Shown one piece after another: positions 10,205-37,261 of a stretch of DNA of 64,000 bases (positions are counted from its first letter, which is position 1; each line of letters opens with the position of its first letter). The position numbers were made by a program, and so were the translations under genes. The stretch comes from a virus (Duplodnaviria > Caudoviricetes): positions 4,746 to 68,745 of the IMG/VR virus record IMGVR_UViG_3300023107_000002. One strand, 5' to 3'. The notes beneath the pieces were generated by a model. It worked only from the letters and a program-made list of their open reading frames with translations. It searched no databases and was not told the DNA's origin.

Positions 10205-10441
10205 TTAGGTGGCACTATCCAGCGCACTCACAACGCAACTCCCAAACTCCTCCGCATATTCCTTCAACGCCCCGTCCTGGCTGTTGAAAGTCCATCTGTC
10301 GGTATAGGACAAGGAACCCCAATAAAAATTGTTTGCATACAAATGCCACGTTGCACTTGACCCGGCGCCCATCACCTGCGATAATTCGCCGTGGTGGGTT
10401 TTGTTGAGGTAGGTGAAGGTGACGGGTATAGGCATCATCAA
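10205..10441 (-). CDS. Hypothetical protein downstream of integrase
   Basis: 4-nt overlap with the integrase stop codon. Confidence 0.6.
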   Translation of the reverse strand: MMMPIPVTFTYLNKTHHGELSQVMGAGSSATWHLYANNFYWGSLSYTDRWTFNSQDGALKEYAEEFGSCVVSALDSAT

Positions 10442-11505
10442 CCCAGATCAATATTTATCTTATCCGTCCCGGTCCGTTTCATTTCGTTGGCAGTGTTCAC
10501 ATAACGCTGCGTGTGTTTCATGCTCGTATGCCCAAGTAGCTTCGATGTTGTCAGCACATCAATATCATTGAGGATCAGGTTGGTTCCAAACGAATGCCTC
10601 CCGTTATGCCAGGTAATTTTCTTTGTGATCTTTGCCCGTTCAACCCAGTCTTTCAGTGCGTAGTTTGCACCGTTCGCTGTGCCCAATGTGAATACAAGGC
10701 TGTTAGGCTTCCCCGGCTCACCGAGCAACTTGATTGCAGAAGCATTAAGCGGGATCGTTACCTCGTCTGATGTTTTGGCCTGGGTAATATGAAGTGAAGC
10801 TGAATCAAGTCTTACGCAGGACCAAGTTAATGCTTTGATGTCAGCCCATCGTAAGCCAGTGACACAGGTGAAAAGAAACGCCCGTTTCATCTCAGTAGCC
10901 TTTGTTTCAGTTGCATTAAGTCGCTTCAATTCATCCAAGGTCAGCACGTCTTTCTTTTTTGCTTTGCCCCGGATCTTCTTTTCAACAAAATCAAGTACAT
11001 TCTCCCGCATCATCTTTTTGCGGTACGCATGTTTGATCATCTTCTTGAACCGGTTATAATAAGAAGATGGTCCTTCACCTGTGCAAGTATCTTCTAAATG
11101 GTTCATGTACCCTTCGATCAGCAAGGCGTCAAGGTTTGCAAATGCGACATTTGAACGGTGCTGCAGAAACTCTTTGAACCGCTTCAGCGCACCTTCCATG
11201 TTCCGTTTGTCCTTCTTCGTGTACCCGTTCACATACGCCTGCATCCAGGCAACGACCGAAACGCTGGTATCTTTATTGGCGACTACATTATAATTATTTG
11301 CTTCAAGTTCTGCACCGTAGGACACTGCAATCTTTTCCGCTTGTCTTATTTTTGCTTTATTATCTTCCCTGGCTTCCGGCGTGGTAGGTTTAGCAAGCTG
11401 CAAGTGTTTCAATGTTTCAATGGATCGCTTACCATCCCGGTAAATGTCCAGTCGAAGGGAGATGGTGCCGTCCGCGTTTTTTCGTTTTCTTAAAGTTACA
11501 CTCAT
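10438..11505 (-). CDS. int: Tyrosine integrase (Bacteroidota arm-binding type)
   Basis: N-terminal arm-binding domain (SLRLDIYRDGKRSIETL); catalytic TGLR, HNGRHSF, LLGH, TQRY. Confidence 0.97.
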   Translation of the reverse strand: MSVTLRKRKNADGTISLRLDIYRDGKRSIETLKHLQLAKPTTPEAREDNKAKIRQAEKIAVSYGAELEANNYNVVANKDTSVSVVAWMQAYVNGYTKKDKRNMEGALKRFKEFLQHRSNVAFANLDALLIEGYMNHLEDTCTGEGPSSYYNRFKKMIKHAYRKKMMRENVLDFVEKKIRGKAKKKDVLTLDELKRLNATETKATEMKRAFLFTCVTGLRWADIKALTWSCVRLDSASLHITQAKTSDEVTIPLNASAIKLLGEPGKPNSLVFTLGTANGANYALKDWVERAKITKKITWHNGRHSFGTNLILNDIDVLTTSKLLGHTSMKHTQRYVNTANEMKRTGTDKINIDLG

Positions 11506-14462: not shown

Positions 14463-14612
14463 ATGATAACTAGTCTCATCGCAGCAATCGGGTTCGGCTA
14501 CCTGATCTACTCGCCAAGTATCGAACAATTCAGAAAGAGAAAACCGAAGCATGACGGGTCGGTTGCAAAGAGAGTTGGAGGCTATGTTGAATTTATAAAA
14601 ATTAAGCCATGA
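14463..14612 (+). CDS. Small single-TM peptide (49 aa), not in ORF track
   Basis: MITSLIAAIGFGYLIYSPS...; ATGA overlaps with neighbours at both ends. Confidence 0.55.
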   Translation: MITSLIAAIGFGYLIYSPSIEQFRKRKPKHDGSVAKRVGGYVEFIKIKP

Positions 14613-15016
14613 GAGAGATAAAATTCAGAGCCTGGCATAGCAACCAAAATAAAATGTTTTCTGCGGAAGAAATGGCAATCGATCAATTAACTCTTTTGAC
14701 TACTGGCAGGTTTATCAACGTTAGCGGCGCAAGTCAAAGGCTATCGAAAGTAATTAATAGCATGATCCCGTTGCAGTATACCGGATTTTCTGATAAGCAT
14801 AGTGTTGAAGTCTATGACGGTGATATTATTCAGCATTGCATTACAAAAACAAGGTTTGTTATTTACTGGGATCAAAACGGGTTTGCTTTTAAGAAAAAAA
14901 GATTAGACAACGGTAACACGTACAATCTTGATGTACACCAAACTCTACTTGAGGTGATCGGAAATATTTATCAAAATCCCGAATTAATTGAACAATTCCA
15001 AACTCAACCAGCATGA
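14609..15016 (+). CDS. YopX family protein
   Basis: MREIKFRAW...LQYTG..DK...VYDGDII...EVIGNIYQNPEL. Confidence 0.93.
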   Translation: MREIKFRAWHSNQNKMFSAEEMAIDQLTLLTTGRFINVSGASQRLSKVINSMIPLQYTGFSDKHSVEVYDGDIIQHCITKTRFVIYWDQNGFAFKKKRLDNGNTYNLDVHQTLLEVIGNIYQNPELIEQFQTQPA

Positions 15017-15335: not shown

Positions 15336-15491
15336 ATGATACACGAATTACTAGCAATGGCCGTCACTGATCGGTATAAGAATACGCTTTATTCATTTCC
15401 TTCTGATGGGAGTCCATTGATACCTCGCCGAATGCTCAACCAACGCCAACGCAGAAAATTAAATAGGCAAGTTCCAAATCGCAGGAAATAA
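15336..15491 (+). CDS. Arg-rich 51-aa peptide, not in ORF track
   Basis: Ends ...RRMLNQRQRRKLNRQVPNRRK; A-rich start context. Confidence 0.55.
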   Translation: MIHELLAMAVTDRYKNTLYSFPSDGSPLIPRRMLNQRQRRKLNRQVPNRRK

Positions 15492-15546
15492 TGTGCTTAC
15501 CTGCCTCTCCACGAAAAGACCTATGAAAACTTAGGTCATGTTGGAC

Positions 15547-15575
15547 GGAGCCAGTTGAAGGTGCTGGCTCCTTTT
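15547..15575 (+). terminator. Hairpin with U-tract at the 5' edge of the structured RNA region
   Basis: ggagccag-N9-ctggctcc-tttt. Confidence 0.6.
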
Positions 15576-15727
15576 AAAACGAGTAAAACAAGTGCGTCGG
15601 GTGGAAAAACAGGCACATCAGAACCTGCCACAAACGCTCCTTAGTTCTTTCAAAATAATTGTGTTCCTGCGGCCGCTCCTGACTGTACAGAGGCTTAATG
15701 GCTATCAGGAGAAGCAGGGCACAATAC

Positions 15728-15830
15728 GGGGCGATCTACCAATGGCAGGTGTATCATCAAGGGTTCCGTGGTGCGTGAGGCTAACGCATCGCCTTGATGG
15801 GTAGTAGAGGTTCGATTCCTCTTTGCTCCA
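15728..15830 (+). ncRNA. tRNA-Ala-like RNA with extended anticodon arm
   Basis: Acceptor GGGGCGA/TTGCTCC+A (G3.U70, A73); D-arm TACC-AATGGCA-GGTG; T-arm AGAGG-TTCGATT-CCTCT; 5-nt variable loop; 37-nt insert in place of the 7-nt anticodon loop. Confidence 0.75.
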
Positions 15831-16010
15831 CAATACGAACGGATGGCTTAAGTAAGATTTCTTCGACAGTGTTGCTGAATGAAAAAAGAACCATTGAGGG
15901 AATGCAGAAAAGAAGCATGCAGGATCGCACCCTGCTCCGTTCGCCGTAAAAATTCATGGAAGTTTTTTGCTCTTAGGAGTTTTTTGGGGAACGTTCGAAT
16001 CGTCCTGACA

Positions 16011-16033
16011 GGCTGGAAAGACAGCCACTTTTT
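16011..16033 (+). terminator. Hairpin with U-tract at the 3' edge of the structured RNA region
   Basis: ggctg-gaaaga-cagcc-a-ctttttt. Confidence 0.5.
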
Positions 16034-16052
16034 AACCCTTATCAATTCAACC

Positions 16053-16223
16053 ATGCTCAAAACAATCAAAGCCATGCTACTGCTAATCTTAATGCCTGCC
16101 ATTCTACTATCAGTCGCATTGGTCGGCTACTTCGCAATCAAAGAACCGCTACCCGAACCGGACGAACCGCTGCATGAAGAATTGGATGATACAGTTTGGG
16201 GCGGAACATTAAATAATAATTAA
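16053..16223 (+). CDS. Small single-TM protein
   Basis: MLKTIKAMLLLILMPAILLSVALVGYFAIKE; start moved from 15879 to 16053. Confidence 0.6.
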   Translation: MLKTIKAMLLLILMPAILLSVALVGYFAIKEPLPEPDEPLHEELDDTVWGGTLNNN

Positions 16224-16234
16224 AACGAAATACC

Positions 16235-16666
16235 ATGGGAACAAGAGCCGACTTCTACATCAGAAATGAAAAATCAGAACCCATAATGGAATGGCTGGGG
16301 TCTATTGGATTCGATGGATATCCAGACGGGATTGCGCCCGGTGTTTTATATGCCACTGACGAAAATAAATATAGGGAACAGGTTAAATTATTCCTGCAGA
16401 TGGAACAAGGGACGTTGCCTGAGCGCGGTTGGCCATGGCCATGGGATAATAGTCAAACTACTGATTTCTCTTACATATTTGAGAATGATAAAGTACTGGC
16501 TAGTTCGTTCGGCTACCCACTCTTTGATCCGCTTTCCGACATTGAATCTGACGAAGAAGATTTTGACGCTCAGAAAATGACAGGCTTTTTCCCAGACATG
16601 AAGGGCGTTCAAAACGTCCGATTTGATGCAAAGGGATCTGGGATGATAATTATTAATGCAAAATAA
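16235..16666 (+). CDS. Conserved phage protein (MGTRADFY...DGYP family)
   Basis: MGTRADFY, DGYPDG and WPWPWDNSQTTDFSY motifs. Confidence 0.75.
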   Translation: MGTRADFYIRNEKSEPIMEWLGSIGFDGYPDGIAPGVLYATDENKYREQVKLFLQMEQGTLPERGWPWPWDNSQTTDFSYIFENDKVLASSFGYPLFDPLSDIESDEEDFDAQKMTGFFPDMKGVQNVRFDAKGSGMIIINAK

Positions 16667-24011: not shown

Positions 24012-24671
24012 ATGGCAAAACGTCTATCAGATACCGACAAATGGAAGAAGCCATTTTTCAGGGGATTGCCGAGCGAATATAAAATGCTCTGGTTGTATCT
24101 CCTGGACGATTGCGACCATGCAGGGATTTGGCACGTTGACACCGAAGTGGCGGAAATAAGATTGGGGATCAAATTGTCACTCCAAAAAGCACAGGGGTTT
24201 TTCAAAGAAAAGATTGTTGTGTTTGACAATGGAACCAAATGGTTCATCCCGGATTTTATTCAGTTCCAATATGGTGATTTTAACGAGACAAATAAGATGT
24301 ACAAATCAATTTTACCAGTTCTTAAAAGATACGATCTGATCCCCCATTTATCCCCCATTTATGGGGCTAAGGTAATGGTAAAGGAAAAGGTATTAATTAC
24401 TAGTAGTATAATAACAGAAATGGAGGAAAAAGAATTTCTTACAAATCAGGCATGGAAAGAACAGTTCTGCATGGCGAAAAATATCAGCATGAAAGATCTG
24501 GAAACGTTTCAAAAGAAGTTCGTTGCTGATGTGAAGTTGAAGAACGAACCTATCGACAGCCTCAAGCGGTATTTCACCAACTGGTACAACAAGGTTCAAC
24601 CAAAGGCAGGACAACCCGAATTTACCCAAATAAGTGAGCACGAGAAAAAATTGAGGGCTGTAGGATTATGA
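24012..24671 (+). CDS. Replication initiator-like protein
   Basis: MAKRLSDTDKWKKPFF...LWLYLLDDCDHAGIW; precedes primase-helicase. Confidence 0.7.
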   Translation: MAKRLSDTDKWKKPFFRGLPSEYKMLWLYLLDDCDHAGIWHVDTEVAEIRLGIKLSLQKAQGFFKEKIVVFDNGTKWFIPDFIQFQYGDFNETNKMYKSILPVLKRYDLIPHLSPIYGAKVMVKEKVLITSSIITEMEEKEFLTNQAWKEQFCMAKNISMKDLETFQKKFVADVKLKNEPIDSLKRYFTNWYNKVQPKAGQPEFTQISEHEKKLRAVGL

Positions 24672-26362
24672 GTAACGCAGAACTTTTAATCGACAAAGGA
24701 ATAGACCTGAGAAAGCACACCAGCGGCAGCATTAAAACGCTTTGCCCGGAGTGTGCAGAGACCCGGAAGCATAAGAAAGATCCATCACTCAGCGTAGACA
24801 TTGACGAGGGGATGTACAACTGCCACAACTGCGGATGGAAAGGTAGAGTCTTTGAAAAGAAGGTCAAGGAATACGTGAAGCCATTGCCCCGGCTGGAAAA
24901 GTTAGGCAAGACCGCTTTGAATTATTTTGAAGAACATCGGAAGATTTCAAATAACACGCTTCTCCGCATGAACGTGACAGAGGCAAATGAGTGGATGCCT
25001 CAAACTGAATCAGAAGTGCCCTGTATTTGCTTCAACTACTACCGTGGTGAGGATTTGGTCAACATAAAATTTAGAGGTCCTAAAAAGTCCTTTAAAATGG
25101 CAAAAGACGCTGAGTTGATTTTTTACAACCTCAACGCGATTGCCGATATCGACGAATGCATAATTGTCGAAGGCGAGATTGATTGCCTGAGTTTGCACGA
25201 GGTCGGGATATTTAACAGCGTATCAGTTCCAAACGGCGCAAGCAAAGGGAGCCAGAAACTTGAATACCTGGATAACTGCTGGGATGCTTTCAAAGACATG
25301 AAGAAAGTTGTTCTCATGGTTGATCACGACGAAGCAGGGTATGCACTCCGGGAGGAACTGGCAAGAAGGCTCGGTAAAGACATCTGCTACAAAGTGACGA
25401 TGCCTGAAGGATGTAAGGATGCAAACGAGATCCTTGTCAAATACGGCAAAGATGTTTTACTGGAAACGATAGGAACGGCTTACCAGTGGCCTATCGAGGG
25501 AGTCTTCACTATGGAAGATATGATCGAGGACGTTTACAACCTATACGACAACGGGTATCCACAAGGCTGCAAGATCAAAAGTCCGGAGTTTGATAAACTG
25601 GTATCATTCGTTCCCGGCGAAATGACCATTGTAACCGGGATACCTGGCAGCGGGAAAAGCGAATTCATGGATCTTGTTATGTGCTCACTTGCAAAACATC
25701 ACAATTGGTCATGGGCGGTCTGCAGCTTCGAAAATCAGCCATCATCTCAGCACGTTACGAAGTTGCTGGAAAAGATTACCGGCAAAGCATTCGGTTTCCG
25801 GGATAATCCATCATTCAGGATGAATGTCGATGAAAGAGATTACGGTATTTACGTGGTTGACAAGTTTTTTCACTTCATCAACATCAGCCAGATCGACGTA
25901 ACGCTGCCTGGTATTCTCGAAAAGACAAAGGAACTGGTCGTTCGTAAAGGCGTAAAAGGGTTAATGATCGATCCATGGAACTACATCGAACACAAAATTC
26001 CGAAAGGCTATACCGAAACGCAGTACATCAGCGAAAGCCTTACCCTGCTGAAAACGTTCGCATTGAAAAACGGAATTCACGTTATCCTGATTGCTCACCC
26101 GACTAAAGTTCCAAAGGACAGGCAGACAGGCAAATCAGAAGTGCCAACGCTTTATAGCATTGCAGGCTCAGCGCACTTCTTCAATAAGACCGATAACGGC
26201 ATAACGGTCTACCGGGATTACGAAAAGAAACTGGTTGACGTGTACGTGCAGAAGGTTCGGTCATCCTGGCTCGGCCATACCGGATTTGCAACATTCGAAT
26301 ACGACACCATGATTCGTCAATACAAACCTGTGGTTCCGGGATTTGAACCGTTCGATAATTAA
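24668..26362 (+). CDS. Primase-helicase (T7 gp4/Twinkle-like)
   Basis: Zn finger CPEC..CHNC; TOPRIM IVEGEIDC..MVDHDEAG..KDANE; Walker A TGIPGSGKS; IDPWN; IAHPTK. Confidence 0.95.
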   Translation: MSNAELLIDKGIDLRKHTSGSIKTLCPECAETRKHKKDPSLSVDIDEGMYNCHNCGWKGRVFEKKVKEYVKPLPRLEKLGKTALNYFEEHRKISNNTLLRMNVTEANEWMPQTESEVPCICFNYYRGEDLVNIKFRGPKKSFKMAKDAELIFYNLNAIADIDECIIVEGEIDCLSLHEVGIFNSVSVPNGASKGSQKLEYLDNCWDAFKDMKKVVLMVDHDEAGYALREELARRLGKDICYKVTMPEGCKDANEILVKYGKDVLLETIGTAYQWPIEGVFTMEDMIEDVYNLYDNGYPQGCKIKSPEFDKLVSFVPGEMTIVTGIPGSGKSEFMDLVMCSLAKHHNWSWAVCSFENQPSSQHVTKLLEKITGKAFGFRDNPSFRMNVDERDYGIYVVDKFFHFINISQIDVTLPGILEKTKELVVRKGVKGLMIDPWNYIEHKIPKGYTETQYISESLTLLKTFALKNGIHVILIAHPTKVPKDRQTGKSEVPTLYSIAGSAHFFNKTDNGITVYRDYEKKLVDVYVQKVRSSWLGHTGFATFEYDTMIRQYKPVVPGFEPFDN

Positions 26363-26726: not shown

Positions 26727-27071
26727 ATGGCACTACAAGTAAAGGGAACAGTTGACACGGTATTCCCGACCGAAACGGTAGGAACCGGATCATTCCAGAA
26801 ACGCCCGTTCTGGCTGACTATCGAAGAGGACACGAAATATCCTCAGAAGATCCAGCTCGAATTCACCCAGGCAAAATGCGTCGAGCTGGACAAAATCAAA
26901 CCAGGAATGAAGGTCGAAGTCGATTTCAATATCCGCGGAAACGAGTATAAGGGCAAAGTGTACGTCAACCTGCAGGCATGGAAGATCGCTGTGATCGGTG
27001 GATCTGCATCGCAAAAAACTGAACTGGTCGATGAGATTAATAACGATTCAAGCGAGAGTTTGCCCTTCTAA
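26727..27071 (+). CDS. DUF3127 OB-fold protein (SSB-like)
   Basis: FQKRPFWL...YPQKIQLEFTQ...VEVDFNIRGNEY...VNLQAWKI; acidic tail ending LPF. Confidence 0.9.
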   Translation: MALQVKGTVDTVFPTETVGTGSFQKRPFWLTIEEDTKYPQKIQLEFTQAKCVELDKIKPGMKVEVDFNIRGNEYKGKVYVNLQAWKIAVIGGSASQKTELVDEINNDSSESLPF

Positions 27072-27129
27072 AATCTTCAATACCCCCTGCATCAACCCGG
27101 TGCAGGGACAAAACGAAAAAAGAGAAAAT

Positions 27130-28197
27130 ATGAAACTAGCATCAGCAGAACGAATCTTAAAGATTGAACCAATCGAGGGAGCCGATTTAATCCAGAAGGC
27201 TACCGTGCTTGGTTGGGAACTGGTAATCAAGAAAGATGAATTCAAAGTCGGCGATCTGGCTGGCTACATCCAAATTGATACCGTTGCGCCTGAAACACCG
27301 CAATTTGAATTCCTGCGCGAAAGGAAGTTCCGTGTAAGGACTATCAAACTCAGAAAACAAATCAGTCAAGGCTTACTGGTTCCACTTCCTGAAGGAAAAT
27401 GGAAGGAAGCCGATGACCTAACCGATGCGCTTGGAGTTAAGAAGTTTTCCAAAGACAACGAGGTGGAAGTTCGCCCAAGAGTGCCGAAAGTCTGGTACAA
27501 GAAGTGGTGGTACATGTTCAAGTACAACGTATTGGTCAAAGTGTTTCCGGGCCTCAAAACTTTCAATCGGGTTGCCTTTCCTAAACATCTTGTTCCGATT
27601 ACGGACGAAGAAAGGATTCAGAACATTCCCGGCGTTCTGGAAACATACAAAGGCAGGGACTTCATTGTTTCTGAGAAGTTGGACGGAAGCAGTATCACCA
27701 TCATTCATGAAGTAAGCAGATTCGGCAAACACAAATACCGCGTTTGCTCCCGCAGGTTTGAACTGTTCAACACAAACAACGAATGGCATCGTGTAGTCAA
27801 GTCCACCGGTTTTGAAGAAAAAGTCAAGGCTATCTGCTATCACAAAGAAGTCGGGAGTAACAACGTCATCGTACAGGGTGAGTTCATCGGGCAACCACAA
27901 GGAAACAAGTACCAGTTGGAAGCGAACGAGATTCGGTTGTTCAACATCTACGTGAATGGTAAACGCCTCCCGCAAGATCAATTCTACCGCATCTGCGATG
28001 AACTCGAAATCCCATGCTGCCCGATGATCGGCAACCTGTCTTTAAACTTTACTCTACCAGAGATTATGCAATTCGCTGAAGGAAAATCACTGCTGAATAA
28101 AACGGCTGAGCGTGAGGGGTTAGTATTCCGATGCATTGACGACAACATGAGTTTCAAGGTGATCAGTAACAAATGGCTCTTAAAAAATCAGGAGTAG
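27130..28197 (+). CDS. RNA ligase (Rnl2/DRB0094-like)
   Basis: N-terminal LAS..RI..IEPIEGADLI; motif I SEKLDGSS; VQGEF; LFNIY; EREGLVFR; FKVISNKWLL. Confidence 0.92.
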   Translation: MKLASAERILKIEPIEGADLIQKATVLGWELVIKKDEFKVGDLAGYIQIDTVAPETPQFEFLRERKFRVRTIKLRKQISQGLLVPLPEGKWKEADDLTDALGVKKFSKDNEVEVRPRVPKVWYKKWWYMFKYNVLVKVFPGLKTFNRVAFPKHLVPITDEERIQNIPGVLETYKGRDFIVSEKLDGSSITIIHEVSRFGKHKYRVCSRRFELFNTNNEWHRVVKSTGFEEKVKAICYHKEVGSNNVIVQGEFIGQPQGNKYQLEANEIRLFNIYVNGKRLPQDQFYRICDELEIPCCPMIGNLSLNFTLPEIMQFAEGKSLLNKTAEREGLVFRCIDDNMSFKVISNKWLLKNQE

Positions 28198-36587: not shown

Positions 36588-36652
36588 GGTTCTAGTTTGT
36601 TTACTGCCTTTCGGCAGTCATCACAATTTGAGGGACTTTGAACCCGTAGAAC

Positions 36653-37261
36653 CTAATTGATACCGGCAATAATTTTACCTGTATTCAGGTCTTTATAGAT
36701 TAACCTATAATCGTGTATGCGATCAATCCAAATCAGGTCCAGCAATTCAACGTTATCTGAGCGAAAAGCAATCTTTTGAGTGAACCTGTAGTAAACATTT
36801 GAGGCTGTCTGGTCAACTCCGCCCCATTGTTCCGGCTGCCAATCTCCGTTTGCCTGTATCTGCCACCCGTGATCCTTACCAATTTTAGCGAAGATGTTTA
36901 ACACGTCTGCCCGGTATTTGTAATCGGTTAAAGTGTGCGCTGTTTGGCGTGAGCATTGAACGTACTTAGCACATGCAACCTCTTTTACTTCTCCATTTGG
37001 CAGAACATCGAGCGCATGTGAAGTATGAATATACATATCGTCCATTGAATCAAAATAGCCGTATTGTCTGCGTTTAACGATGTTTTCTACCTCGTTGTAA
37101 GTTGGTCCGAAGATCCATTTAACATCTACTGAGTTGCCACCCGCGAAATTTTCAGACTTAACGCTGAATTTAGTTGTTGGGTATTTGGCTTTCAAGATTG
37201 CTTTAATCTCTTTGGCTGCCTGTGCTGATTCTGATTTGATTTTCATTTTGCTTGTTACCAT
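36653..37261 (-). CDS. LPD29 (large polyvalent protein-associated domain 29) protein
   Basis: AKEIKAILKAKYPTTKFSVKSENFAGGNSVDVKW..GPT...GYFDSMDDMY. Confidence 0.8.
   Translation of the reverse strand: MVTSKMKIKSESAQAAKEIKAILKAKYPTTKFSVKSENFAGGNSVDVKWIFGPTYNEVENIVKRRQYGYFDSMDDMYIHTSHALDVLPNGEVKEVACAKYVQCSRQTAHTLTDYKYRADVLNIFAKIGKDHGWQIQANGDWQPEQWGGVDQTASNVYYRFTQKIAFRSDNVELLDLIWIDRIHDYRLIYKDLNTGKIIAGIN

What the first reader, a model, noticed from the sequence alone, without database searches (positions are those of the whole stretch)
15728..15830. Alanine-identity tRNA mimic with a 30-nt longer anticodon arm
Seen: a full cloverleaf scaffold. Acceptor GGGGCGA/TTGCTCC+A; D-arm TACC-AATGGCA-GGTG with the GG pair; stem TCATC/GATGG; variable loop GTAGT; T-arm AGAGG-TTCGATT-CCTCT. 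In place of the 7-nt anticodon loop are 37 nt: AAGG/CCTT extends the stem and a distal hairpin GTGCGT-GAGGCTA-ACGCAT has a 7-nt loop centred on GGC, an Ala anticodon. Established: G3.U70 and A73 are sufficient AlaRS identity elements and are used by tmRNA; CCA can be added enzymatically. Inference: an RNA that could be processed by RNase P/Z, alanylated and bound by EF-Tu but is unlikely to decode. It could be a decoy for anticodon nucleases or tRNA-sensing defence, a sponge for AlaRS, EF-Tu or SmpB, an Ala donor, or a processing signal that releases neighbouring RNAs.
Basis: partly seen in the sequence, partly recalled or inferred. Interest (0 to 1): 0.88.

Follow-up and report, generated by a model that had tools for sequence, protein, structure and literature searches.

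The report
Phage tRNA look-alike, over-long anticodon arm
A soil phage carries a real tRNA-shaped gene, derived from an alanine tRNA, whose decoding arm is a 47-base rod with no usable anticodon; it is most likely a non-decoding tRNA mimic of a kind that recurs in phages, and its job is unknown.

Summary
Window 15728-15830 (+) folds as a full cloverleaf with 33 pairs: 27 Watson-Crick, 6 G-U and no mismatch. All the nucleotides that build the tRNA elbow are present. Acceptor positions 1-5 and 68-73 are identical to E. coli tRNA-Ala. The anticodon arm is 47 nt instead of 17.

A rule-based tRNA-body scan finds only this site in the window and none in 300 shuffles. ARAGORN (default) and Rfam do not call it, and it is not a tmRNA.

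No single excision restores a canonical tRNA. The native helix register offers no U33. The best ARAGORN "intron" solution gives Ala-CGC, but with C37 and no nucleotide 26. There is no bulge-helix-bulge motif and no room for a ribozyme.

The element lies in a roughly 450-nt non-coding stretch between two terminator-like hairpins. The stretch also holds a long hairpin and a second tRNA-shaped unit, each followed or preceded by the linker CACAATAC. The second unit recurs at about 97% identity in another soil metagenome with different flanks. Related phages carry other tRNA bodies with altered anticodon arms.

Best reading (0.5): a processed, non-decoding tRNA-Ala-derived mimic. Charging, expression and function are untested. 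The element is a singleton, so covariation could not be tested.

This scan has noted similar phage look-alikes on other DNA.

The parts
15547..15579 (+). Terminator-like hairpin (9-bp G+C-rich stem, then TTTTAAAA) that ends the upstream genes and bounds the non-coding stretch on the left
   Evidence: Folds with z = -3.7, 0 of 200 shuffles as good. Seen as inverted repeat I3. The consensus scan missed it because its loop is 9 nt.
15655..15727 (+). Unit 0: a long hairpin (7 + 5 + 7 bp) whose 3' strand includes the first copy of the linker CACAATAC (15720-15727). Its loop holds GAGGCTTAATGGCTA.
   Evidence: Folds with z = -3.7, 0 of 200 shuffles as good. Linker repeat is family D10.
15728..15830 (+). 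The finding: a tRNA-Ala-derived cloverleaf with a 47-nt anticodon arm (103 nt, no encoded CCA)
   Evidence: ARAGORN calls it only with introns allowed and the threshold at 95% or lower. Rfam tRNA gives 14.5 bits for a partial alignment.
15754..15800 (+). Extended anticodon arm: proximal 9-bp helix (15754-15762 with 15792-15800), 6-nt 5' bulge GTTCCG (15763-15768), distal 8-bp helix (15769-15776 with 15784-15791), 7-nt loop GAGGCTA (15777-15783)
   Evidence: Minimum-free-energy and centroid folds agree; z = -3.3. Pair list.
15829..15836 (+). Second copy of the linker CACAATAC. Its first two bases are C72 and A73 of the element. It ends immediately before G1 of unit B.
   Evidence: Exact 9-nt direct repeat CACAATACG at 15720-15728 and 15829-15837, spacing 109.
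15837..15944 (+). Unit B: a second tRNA-shaped unit. It has a perfect 7-bp acceptor-like stem (GAACGGA/TCCGTTC), a 5-bp T-like hairpin with a non-canonical loop ATCGCAC, no GG D-loop, and a long central arm.
   Evidence: Fold. ARAGORN calls it only at 90% threshold. Window 15829-15944 lies on a 151-nt contig of soil metagenome run X1 (4 differing letters in 116, about 97%) with unrelated flanks. Its T arm plus 3' acceptor strand recur in metagenome contig L162.
16011..16034 (+). Terminator-like hairpin plus T run that closes the non-coding stretch before the next gene (the only ATG seen there is at 16053)
   Evidence: Consensus scan. A 41-nt stretch around it is 83% identical to L067:5644-5684, which also follows a non-coding gap.

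Best explanation
The element is a gene for a stable, non-decoding tRNA look-alike that descends from an alanine tRNA.

Inferred mechanism:
- It is transcribed as part of a roughly 450-nt non-coding transcript (about 15580-16035) that also holds a long hairpin and a second tRNA-shaped unit.
- Its intact acceptor/T-arm stack and D-loop/T-loop elbow make it a substrate for the host's tRNA-finishing enzymes: RNase P at the G1 that follows the linker CACAATAC, then 3' trimming and CCA addition after A73.
- This would release an RNA of about 106 nt.
- The anticodon arm is not an intron. It is a permanent 17-bp rod with a 6-nt bulge, so the RNA cannot read codons.
- The RNA therefore acts through its upper half, as a tRNA-shaped handle or decoy that carries a stable hairpin module, much as engineered 'tRNA scaffolds' do.
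- Because the acceptor end is that of tRNA-Ala, and AlaRS ignores the anticodon, it could be charged with alanine. That step is possible, not shown.

Shown: the shape, the ancestry, the non-coding setting, and the impossibility of restoring a canonical tRNA by one excision.
Inferred: transcription, processing, stability and any charging.
Unknown: the partner or target.
For: 1. The cloverleaf is far beyond chance and obeys tRNA tertiary rules (U8, A14, A15 with U48, G18 G19, T54-A58, G53-C61).
2. All 33 pairs are intact. The six that are not Watson-Crick are all G-U on the + strand, which would be A-C mismatches on the other strand. The + strand folds at -37.8 kcal/mol against -28.8 for the reverse complement. 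This pattern points to an RNA read from the + strand rather than to a DNA palindrome or a decaying gene.
3. Acceptor positions 1-5 and 68-73 are identical to E. coli tRNA-Ala.
4. No excision gives a canonical tRNA. In the native register (stem 15754-15758 with 15796-15800), every 7-nt loop built from the two ends of the insert has C or A at position 33 (read). The ARAGORN solution needs a shifted stem, lacks nucleotide 26 and has C37.
5. The arm is unusually stable (z = -3.3).
6. Setting: a gap between two terminator-like hairpins. The ORFs that overlap it have no PHROG or Pfam family. The same 8-nt linker precedes both tRNA-shaped units.
7. Unit B is kept at about 97% identity in another metagenome with different flanks, so these units behave as discrete genes.
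8. Phages related through the primase-helicase carry tRNA bodies that pass or approach the Rfam tRNA threshold but have non-decoding arms. L020:2559-2630 has a 6-bp stem and a 3-nt loop (23 bits). L044 has two (42 and 36 bits) and L055 one (35 bits), with 31-66 nt where the model expects 13-17. ARAGORN (default) did not call these four as tRNAs. A truncated arm cannot be repaired by splicing, which favours mimics over introns in this phage group.
Against: - The element is a singleton. Seven exact or degenerate pattern scans for the element in viral contigs, metagenome contigs and species-representative genomes found no second copy. BLAST against GenBank phages also found nothing. So there is no covariation test and no evidence that selection keeps it.
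- There are no expression data.
- Rfam tRNA does not reach threshold (14.5 against 29 bits).
- The best 'spliced' reading gives an Ala anticodon (CGC) that matches the Ala acceptor identity. That coincidence favours the intron rival.
- CCA is not encoded, and the host is unknown.
- No convincing promoter was found (one search gives only weak sigma-70-type matches).
- The function is not identified.
Confidence: 0.5

Rival explanations
1. It is a working tRNA gene interrupted by a short protein-dependent intron, like the 'enigmatic introns' of Lak megaphage tRNAs. A host or phage nuclease (for example RNase III on the 17-bp arm) cuts out about 31 nt and a ligase (the phage has one at 26998-28197) reseals the exons, giving tRNA-Ala(CGC).
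For:
- Deleting 31 nt from 15758 gives a tRNA that ARAGORN accepts even at 105% of its threshold, and the anticodon agrees with the G3-U70/A73 identity.
- The phage encodes an Rnl2-type RNA ligase with a PHA02142 OB domain.
- Insert-bearing tRNA genes exist in other phage tRNA clusters: L160 (49 bits, 53 nt in place of the loop) and L158 (two genes whose inserts share CAGCATTA).
- Introns in Lak phage tRNAs are published (PMC6784885).
Against: - The product would be abnormal: C at position 37, no nucleotide 26, a 6-nt variable loop, and a stem register shifted by one against the far more stable 9-bp helix of the precursor.
- Both proposed splice sites lie inside continuous helices. There is no bulge-helix-bulge motif, and 31 nt cannot hold a ribozyme.
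- The ligase has no homologue in five (incomplete) phage records that carry extended tRNA bodies.
- A related phage has a tRNA body with a shortened arm, which splicing cannot explain.
Confidence: 0.15
2. It is a dead tRNA-Ala gene: a remnant whose anticodon loop was destroyed by insertion or expansion of a palindromic sequence. It is carried along without function.
For: - It is a singleton, absent from related phages and from all collections searched.
- Its Rfam score is below threshold.
- Phage tRNA genes turn over quickly (general knowledge).
- The proximal arm is a perfect inverted repeat (I12), as template-switch events produce.
Against: - A decaying gene should show mismatches. Here 33 of 33 pairs hold, all elbow nucleotides are kept, and every non-Watson-Crick pair is G-U on one strand only. 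Under a transitions-only neutral model that outcome has a probability of about 1 in 64.
- The distal helix has two G-U pairs, so it is not a DNA palindrome.
- It sits in an organised, terminator-bounded array with repeated linkers, next to a unit that is conserved elsewhere.
Confidence: 0.25
3. Its role is only that of a processing signal (a 't-element'). RNase P and RNase Z cut at the tRNA shape to release and stabilise the neighbouring RNAs (unit 0 and unit B), and the excised look-alike itself is a by-product.
For: - The same linker CACAATAC lies directly 5' of both acceptor stems.
- After a cut at G15728, unit 0 would end as a nearly blunt, very stable hairpin.
- In related phage L044, a tRNA body ends 17 nt before the start codon of a YopX-like gene.
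- t-elements are established in plant mitochondria (PMC1920247, listed; the mechanism is from general knowledge).
Against: - RNase P needs only the acceptor/T-arm stack. This reading does not explain why a complete D arm, the elbow contacts, the Ala-type acceptor and a 17-bp arm are kept.
- The stretch has its own terminator, so there is no downstream mRNA to release.
Confidence: 0.1

Closest known systems
Bacterial tRNA-Ala (for example E. coli alaV, NC_000913 225500-225575)
   Same: Acceptor pairs 1-72 to 5-68 including G3-U70, A73, A7-U66, U8, the GG D-loop, and the T loop TTCGAT with G53-C61. The overall cloverleaf with a 5-nt variable loop.
   Different: The anticodon arm is 47 nt instead of 17. 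There is no U33/R37 loop. Two nucleotides separate the D and anticodon stems. CCA is not encoded. It falls below the Rfam and default ARAGORN thresholds.
Insert-bearing tRNA genes of Lak megaphages ('enigmatic introns'; Devoto et al. 2019, PMC6784885)
   Same: A phage tRNA-type gene with a short, ribozyme-less insert in the anticodon region and no known mechanism.
   Different: In Lak phages, tRNAscan in eukaryote mode recovers a typed tRNA, and intron-less alleles exist. Here no excision restores a canonical tRNA and no intron-less allele or homologue was found.
tRNA-like domain of tmRNA (SsrA)
   Same: An alanine-type acceptor with G3-U70, a canonical T arm, and a non-decoding RNA that host tRNA enzymes handle (general knowledge).
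   Different: tmRNA has no D stem, is 300-400 nt with pseudoknots and a tag reading frame, and needs SmpB. Here there is a full D arm and a closed arm. ARAGORN finds no tmRNA, and the Rfam permuted-tmRNA model gives 9.3 against 47 bits, for the T arm only.
Engineered tRNA scaffolds for RNA expression (Ponchon and Dardel; PMC3753655, listed; design recalled from general knowledge)
   Same: A foreign hairpin grafted onto a lengthened anticodon stem. The tRNA body provides RNase P/Z processing and nuclease resistance.
   Different: This one is natural, its cargo hairpin has no known ligand, and it is derived from tRNA-Ala.
YrlA / bacterial and phage Y RNAs (Rfam RF02553; Chen et al. 2014, recalled from general knowledge)
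   Same: A non-decoding RNA with a genuine tRNA-like elbow, found in bacteria and phages.
   Different: In YrlA the ends lie in the helix that replaces the anticodon stem, the acceptor end is closed, and it partners a Ro60/Rsr protein. Here the topology is that of a normal tRNA, with no Rfam match. No Ro60-type gene was seen among the ORFs scanned, but not all were scanned.
Other phage tRNA bodies with altered arms found here (L020, L044, L055, L158, L160)
   Same: Intact acceptor, D and T arms with a non-canonical anticodon region. They lie in phages related by primase-helicase or by the neighbouring gene family.
   Different: There is no sequence similarity to the element. Those in L044 and L055 have a leucine-type D arm and other modules. 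They score higher against Rfam tRNA.

Membership tests
Canonical tRNA (Rfam RF00005) | Score at or above the curated threshold (29 bits), or a default ARAGORN call | tested here: not met
   14.5 bits, E = 3.2, for a partial misalignment of 15770-15830. ARAGORN default finds 0 genes. The search of the window's own genome finds 0 matches.
Canonical tRNA (Rfam RF00005) | 7-bp acceptor, D arm with GG, T arm with TTCRA, and the conserved tertiary-pair nucleotides | tested here: met
   all present, with 0 of 300 shuffles matching.
Canonical tRNA (Rfam RF00005) | 5-bp anticodon stem closing a 7-nt loop with U33 and purine 37 | tested here: not met
   The arm is 9 bp + bulge + 8 bp. The terminal loop GAGGCTA has A at the place of U33 and U at the place of R37.
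tRNA-Ala identity set (AlaRS substrates) | G3-U70 in a regular acceptor helix, with A73 | tested here: met
   G15730 pairs with U15827, and A is at 15830. Positions 1-5 and 68-73 are identical to E. coli alaV. Charging itself is not testable here.
tmRNA | tRNA-like domain without a D stem, a tag reading frame with resume codon, and pseudoknots; detected by ARAGORN or Rfam | tested here: not met
   ARAGORN finds no tmRNA. Rfam tmRNA_permuted gives 9.3 against 47 bits, covering the T arm only.
Archaeal/eukaryal-type spliced tRNA intron | Bulge-helix-bulge at the splice sites (or position 37/38), with exons that join into a canonical tRNA | tested here: not met
   The 3' strand of the arm is continuously paired and the only bulge is 6 nt on the 5' strand. 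No deletion gives a canonical product (and inspection).
Group I intron in tRNA | A self-splicing ribozyme core of about 200 nt or more; an Rfam match | tested here: not met
   The insert is about 30 nt. There is no Rfam match at E up to 10.
Lak-type 'enigmatic' phage tRNA introns | A short insert in the anticodon region of a phage tRNA gene whose removal yields a typed tRNA; the same insert conserved across related phages | tested here: inconclusive
   The insert is present. Removal gives only a non-canonical tRNA-Ala(CGC). No related copy was found.
YrlA / Y RNA | A permuted tRNA-like domain with its ends in a Ro-binding helix; a neighbouring Ro60/Rsr gene; Rfam RF02553 | tested here: not met
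   There is no Rfam match at gathering score in the window, and the topology is that of a normal tRNA. The Ro60 gene was not searched for exhaustively.
t-element / tRNA punctuation signal | A tRNA-like fold inside a longer transcript, cut by RNase P and RNase Z to make the ends of neighbouring RNAs | not testable with these tools
   The layout is compatible (identical linkers 5' of both acceptor stems), but no RNA ends are available.

The most novel reading that the evidence does not exclude
The element and its two neighbours form a small phage operon of processed, non-decoding tRNA mimics. Unit A is finished with CCA and charged by host AlaRS, giving an alanyl-RNA that EF-Tu can bind but the ribosome cannot use. 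It would serve either as a decoy that soaks up a host defence or toxin aimed at the acceptor end or elbow of tRNAs, or as a dedicated alanine donor. This would be a natural, chargeable 'tRNA scaffold' and a member of a so far undescribed class of phage RNAs.
Probability: 0.12. Interest if true: 0.85.

Novelty: new variant of a known kind. Interest (0 to 1): 0.5.

Why it matters
Phages are known to carry tRNAs to feed translation and to replace tRNAs cut by host defences. A tRNA-shaped RNA that keeps the charging end and the elbow but cannot decode points to a different use of the tRNA fold: a handle, decoy or carrier.

Together with the other altered-arm tRNA bodies seen here in related phages, and with the 'enigmatic introns' of Lak phages, this suggests a recurrent and uncharacterised class of phage RNAs. 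Standard tRNA finders and Rfam miss this one, although Rfam's tRNA model did pick up several of the related-phage bodies.

This instance is easy to test (103 nt, with clear predictions for size, ends and charging). As a singleton without expression data, it adds an example rather than an answer.

Tried and rejected
- **Homologue searches, all empty.** BLAST of 15400-16200 against GenBank phages. Exact or degenerate patterns for the 3' half, the acceptor plus T loop with a long gap, the D arm, the arm hairpin, and a relaxed Ala-type pattern, in viral contigs, metagenome contigs and genome contigs. The single-sequence model R1 on 151 related loci and on the window's own record found only weak hits to other tRNAs.
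- **Synteny route.** The downstream gene family (16235-16666) has 547 homologues, the best at 60% identity. 80 loci were fetched.
- **Expression.** No RNA holder was listed by the look-up of sequencing runs. The one DNA run laid covers only 15829-15944.
- **RNA ligase link.** No homologue of the window's ligase was found in five records that carry extended tRNA bodies, all of them incomplete. This gives no support either way.
- **Neighbouring protein.** It has no Pfam or PHROG family. The AlphaFold model is good (pLDDT 84), but there is no PDB fold match, and the protein atlas gives only unnamed viral clusters.
- **Motifs.** GGCTWAA and CACAAWACG are not enriched in the window. The 8-9-nt complementarities between the element and upstream sequence are at chance level. 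No antisense target of the arm loop was found in the window.
- **Overlapping ORFs.** ORFs 15592-15804 (+), 15848-16102 (-) and 15879-16223 (+) have no family support.

Full report
**Where it lies.** The window is most of a 68.7-kb linear IMG/VR virus contig, estimated 56% complete.

Genes identified in the window:
- a tyrosine integrase (10438-11505, minus strand)
- YopX (14609-15016)
- HNH and GIY-YIG endonucleases
- a YqaJ recombinase
- a primase-helicase (24668-26362)
- RusA
- an SSB
- an Rnl2-type RNA ligase with a PHA02142 OB domain (26998-28197)
- tail and virion genes

The one sequencing run that shares any of the stretch is a soil metagenome. Neither default ARAGORN nor Rfam at gathering score finds a tRNA or tmRNA in the window. 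The only Rfam hit is a twister-P3 ribozyme elsewhere.

- With the cloverleaf written out, all 33 proposed pairs form: 27 Watson-Crick, 6 G-U, no mismatch.
- The nucleotides that build the tRNA L-shape are all in place: U8, A14, A15 opposite U48, the GG of the D loop, A21, G53-C61, and the T loop TTCGA.
- The anticodon arm is 47 nt. It has a 9-bp helix, a 6-nt bulge on the 5' strand only, an 8-bp helix stacked on the first on the 3' side, and a 7-nt loop. Its minimum-free-energy and centroid folds coincide, and none of 200 shuffles folds as well (z = -3.3).
- A scanner that encodes only textbook tRNA rules finds this single site in the window. In 300 dinucleotide shuffles it found 5 sites with a T arm plus acceptor, 1 with U8 added, and 0 with a D arm added.
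- A covariance model made from the element alone returns real tRNAs and tRNA-like genes as its best matches in 1.7 Mb of other phage DNA.

The shape is therefore real and of tRNA origin. Alignment with E. coli alaV shows the same acceptor positions 1-5 and 68-73, including G3-U70 and A73. The parent was an alanine tRNA.

**Why it is not an ordinary or interrupted tRNA.**

- Rfam's tRNA model gives 14.5 bits for a partial alignment (threshold 29). The tmRNA models give nothing useful.
- ARAGORN calls it only when introns are allowed and the threshold is lowered. It proposes tRNA-Ala(CGC) with a 31-nt intron.
- Removing those 31 nt gives a sequence that ARAGORN accepts, and the anticodon fits the acceptor identity. 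This is the best argument for an intron.
- However, that solution uses a stem register shifted by one against the 9-bp helix. It leaves no nucleotide 26, a 6-nt variable loop and C at position 37.
- In the native register, every 7-nt loop that can be made from the two ends of the insert has C or A at position 33.
- If the inner 5 bp are taken as the stem, a loop GTTCCG+G with a canonical 37/38 insert appears (anticodon UCC). But the stem would then be 9 bp long.
- The proposed splice sites lie inside continuous helices, there is no bulge-helix-bulge, and 30 nt cannot hold a ribozyme.
- The terminal loop has GGC at its centre but lacks U33 and R37, and lies 12 bp too far from the elbow.

I conclude that the arm is most likely permanent.

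**Strand and selection.** All six non-Watson-Crick pairs are G-U on the + strand. On the other strand they would be A-C mismatches, and the reverse complement folds 9 kcal/mol worse. Two of them are in the distal helix, so the arm is not a DNA palindrome. This pattern is what an RNA under structural constraint shows. It is unlikely for a decaying gene (about 1 in 64 if only transitions occur). It is weak evidence, because it rests on one sequence.

**Surroundings.** The element sits in a gap with no supported ORF.

- On the left is a strong terminator-like hairpin at 15547-15579 (z = -3.7).
- On the right is a terminator-like hairpin with a T run at 16011-16034. The sequence around it is 83% identical over 41 nt to a site in related phage L067 that also follows a non-coding gap.

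Between these two sites lie three structured units:
- Unit 0 (15655-15727) is a long hairpin (z = -3.7).
- Unit A is the finding.
- Unit B (15837-15944) has a perfect 7-bp acceptor-like stem, a 5-bp T-like hairpin with a non-canonical loop, no GG D-loop and a long central arm.

The 9-mer CACAATACG occurs exactly twice in the window, and each copy ends on the first G of a tRNA-shaped unit. In each case the first two letters of the repeat are the last two letters of the preceding unit.

Laying the contigs of the one soil metagenome run that shares words with the stretch gave a 151-nt contig. It matches 15829-15944 (linker plus unit B) with four differences and has unrelated sequence on both sides. 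One of the three listed differences (G15900A) turns a U-G pair of the proposed arm into U-A. The other two weaken a possible 4-bp side stem.

A JGI metagenome contig (L162) shares only the T-like hairpin and the 3' acceptor strand of unit B. Unit B therefore behaves as a discrete, conserved module. Unit A has no second copy anywhere that I could search.

**Relatives with altered arms.** Seventy-one loci from phages with a related primase-helicase (50-66% identity) contain several tRNA bodies that default ARAGORN misses and that Rfam's tRNA model detects, three of the four above its 29-bit threshold:

| Locus | Length | Rfam bits | Anticodon region |
|---|---|---|---|
| L044:3705-3795 | 91 nt | 42 | 31 nt where the model expects 13 |
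| L044:2384-2517 | 134 nt | 36 | 66 nt where the model expects 13 |
| L055:3409-3522 | 114 nt | 35 | 58 nt where the model expects 17 |
| L020:2559-2630 | 72 nt | 23 | 6-bp stem with a 3-nt loop |

- The L044 and L055 genes share a leucine-type D arm, and the L044:2384-2517 and L055 genes also share acceptor and T-arm sequences, but all carry unrelated modules in between. Unit B looks like a degenerate relative of them.
- L044:2384-2517 ends 17 nt before a YopX-like gene.
- My rule-based scanner found seven distinct extended bodies in 1.7 Mb. They include two in L158 whose inserts share CAGCATTA and two in the tRNA cluster of a 111-kb phage.

The literature holds one description of short, unexplained inserts in phage tRNA genes, in Lak megaphages of Prevotella (PMC6784885). 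Earlier notes of this scan describe many phage tRNA look-alikes on other DNA, including alanine-type ones and a leucine-type family with swappable modules. I used them as leads. The leucine-type pattern I saw independently in L044 and L055.

**Mechanism.** I commit to the following, at 0.5.
1. The stretch from about 15580 to 16035 is transcribed as one non-coding RNA.
2. The intact acceptor/T stack and elbow of unit A recruit RNase P (cut before G15728, after the linker), 3' trimming and the CCA-adding enzyme.
3. The product is a stable RNA of about 106 nt with a tRNA upper half and a rigid 17-bp arm. It cannot decode and acts through the upper half or through the hairpin it displays.

AlaRS could charge it, because AlaRS reads the acceptor helix and not the anticodon (established knowledge). 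But the G3-U70 pair may be only inherited.

Rival readings:
- spliced tRNA-Ala: 0.15
- dead gene: 0.25
- pure processing signal: 0.1

**What failed or was closed.** The protein next door is a widespread phage protein without family or fold match. The ligase does not co-occur with extended bodies in five incomplete records.

**Verdict.** This is a real, tRNA-Ala-derived, non-decoding tRNA look-alike. It is one more instance of a recurrent but uncharacterised kind of phage RNA. Its interest is moderate: it is a singleton with no covariation or expression evidence, but it is cleanly testable.

Noticed in passing
window 36588-36653 (-): A type-P3 twister ribozyme (58.8 bits, E = 2.7e-10). It starts at the last base of the stop codon of ORF 36653-37261 (-), which carries an LPD29 domain. 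It would cut the 3' end of that message.
   Followed up: no
window 15837-15944 (+), with linker 15829-15836: A second tRNA-shaped unit (perfect 7-bp acceptor-like stem, T-like hairpin with loop ATCGCAC, no GG D-loop, discriminator G followed by CC). It recurs at about 97% identity on a soil-metagenome contig with unrelated flanks. Its T hairpin plus 3' strand recur in metagenome contig L162:2807-2833.
   Followed up: partly
window 15655-15727 (+): A very stable long hairpin (z = -3.7) whose 3' strand is the linker that precedes the tRNA look-alike. Its loop holds GAGGCTTAATGGCTA, which resembles the arm loop GAGGCTA and the D-loop AATGGC of the element.
   Followed up: partly
L044:2384-2517(-), L044:3705-3795(-), L055:3409-3522(+), L055:3651-3744(+): Related phages carry tRNA bodies with unrelated 30-66-nt modules in place of the anticodon arm. 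The two L044 genes and L055:3409-3522 share a leucine-type D arm (GTGGCGRAAYTGG..ACGC). L044:2384-2517 and both L055 genes share an identical acceptor stem and near-identical T arms. Three pass the Rfam tRNA threshold; default ARAGORN called none of the four as a typed tRNA.
   Followed up: partly
L020:2559-2630 (+): A 72-nt tRNA-like gene whose anticodon arm is a 6-bp stem closed by a 3-nt loop, so it has no anticodon at all (Rfam 23 bits).
   Followed up: no
L158:7361-7476 and L158:8195-8314; L160:320-437(-) and L160:189-313(-): Four tRNA genes in the tRNA clusters of two large phages (125 kb and 111 kb) carry 40-50-nt inserts in the anticodon region. The two L158 inserts share a hairpin followed by CAGCATTA, as a common intron family would.
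   Followed up: partly
L151:5678-5789 (+): A 112-nt tRNA-like element (good acceptor and T arm, about 44 nt in the D region) lies about 290 nt downstream of the homologue of window gene 16235-16666. ARAGORN does not call it.
   Followed up: no
window 26998-28197 (+): A phage RNA ligase of the Rnl2 type with an N-terminal PHA02142 OB domain, between an SSB gene and a gene of unknown function. No polynucleotide kinase/phosphatase partner was recognised among the ORFs scanned.
   Followed up: partly
window 16235-16666 (+): A widespread phage protein family (547 homologues; invariant MGTRADFY and GWPWPW motifs) without Pfam or PHROG family or PDB fold match, despite a confident model (pLDDT 84). 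In L114 its homologue sits between two tRNA clusters.
   Followed up: partly
window 15954-15986 (+): A tandem 16-nt repeat (TCATGGAAGTTTTTTG / TCTTAGGAGTTTTTTG) between unit B and the terminator-like hairpin. Its purpose is unknown.
   Followed up: no
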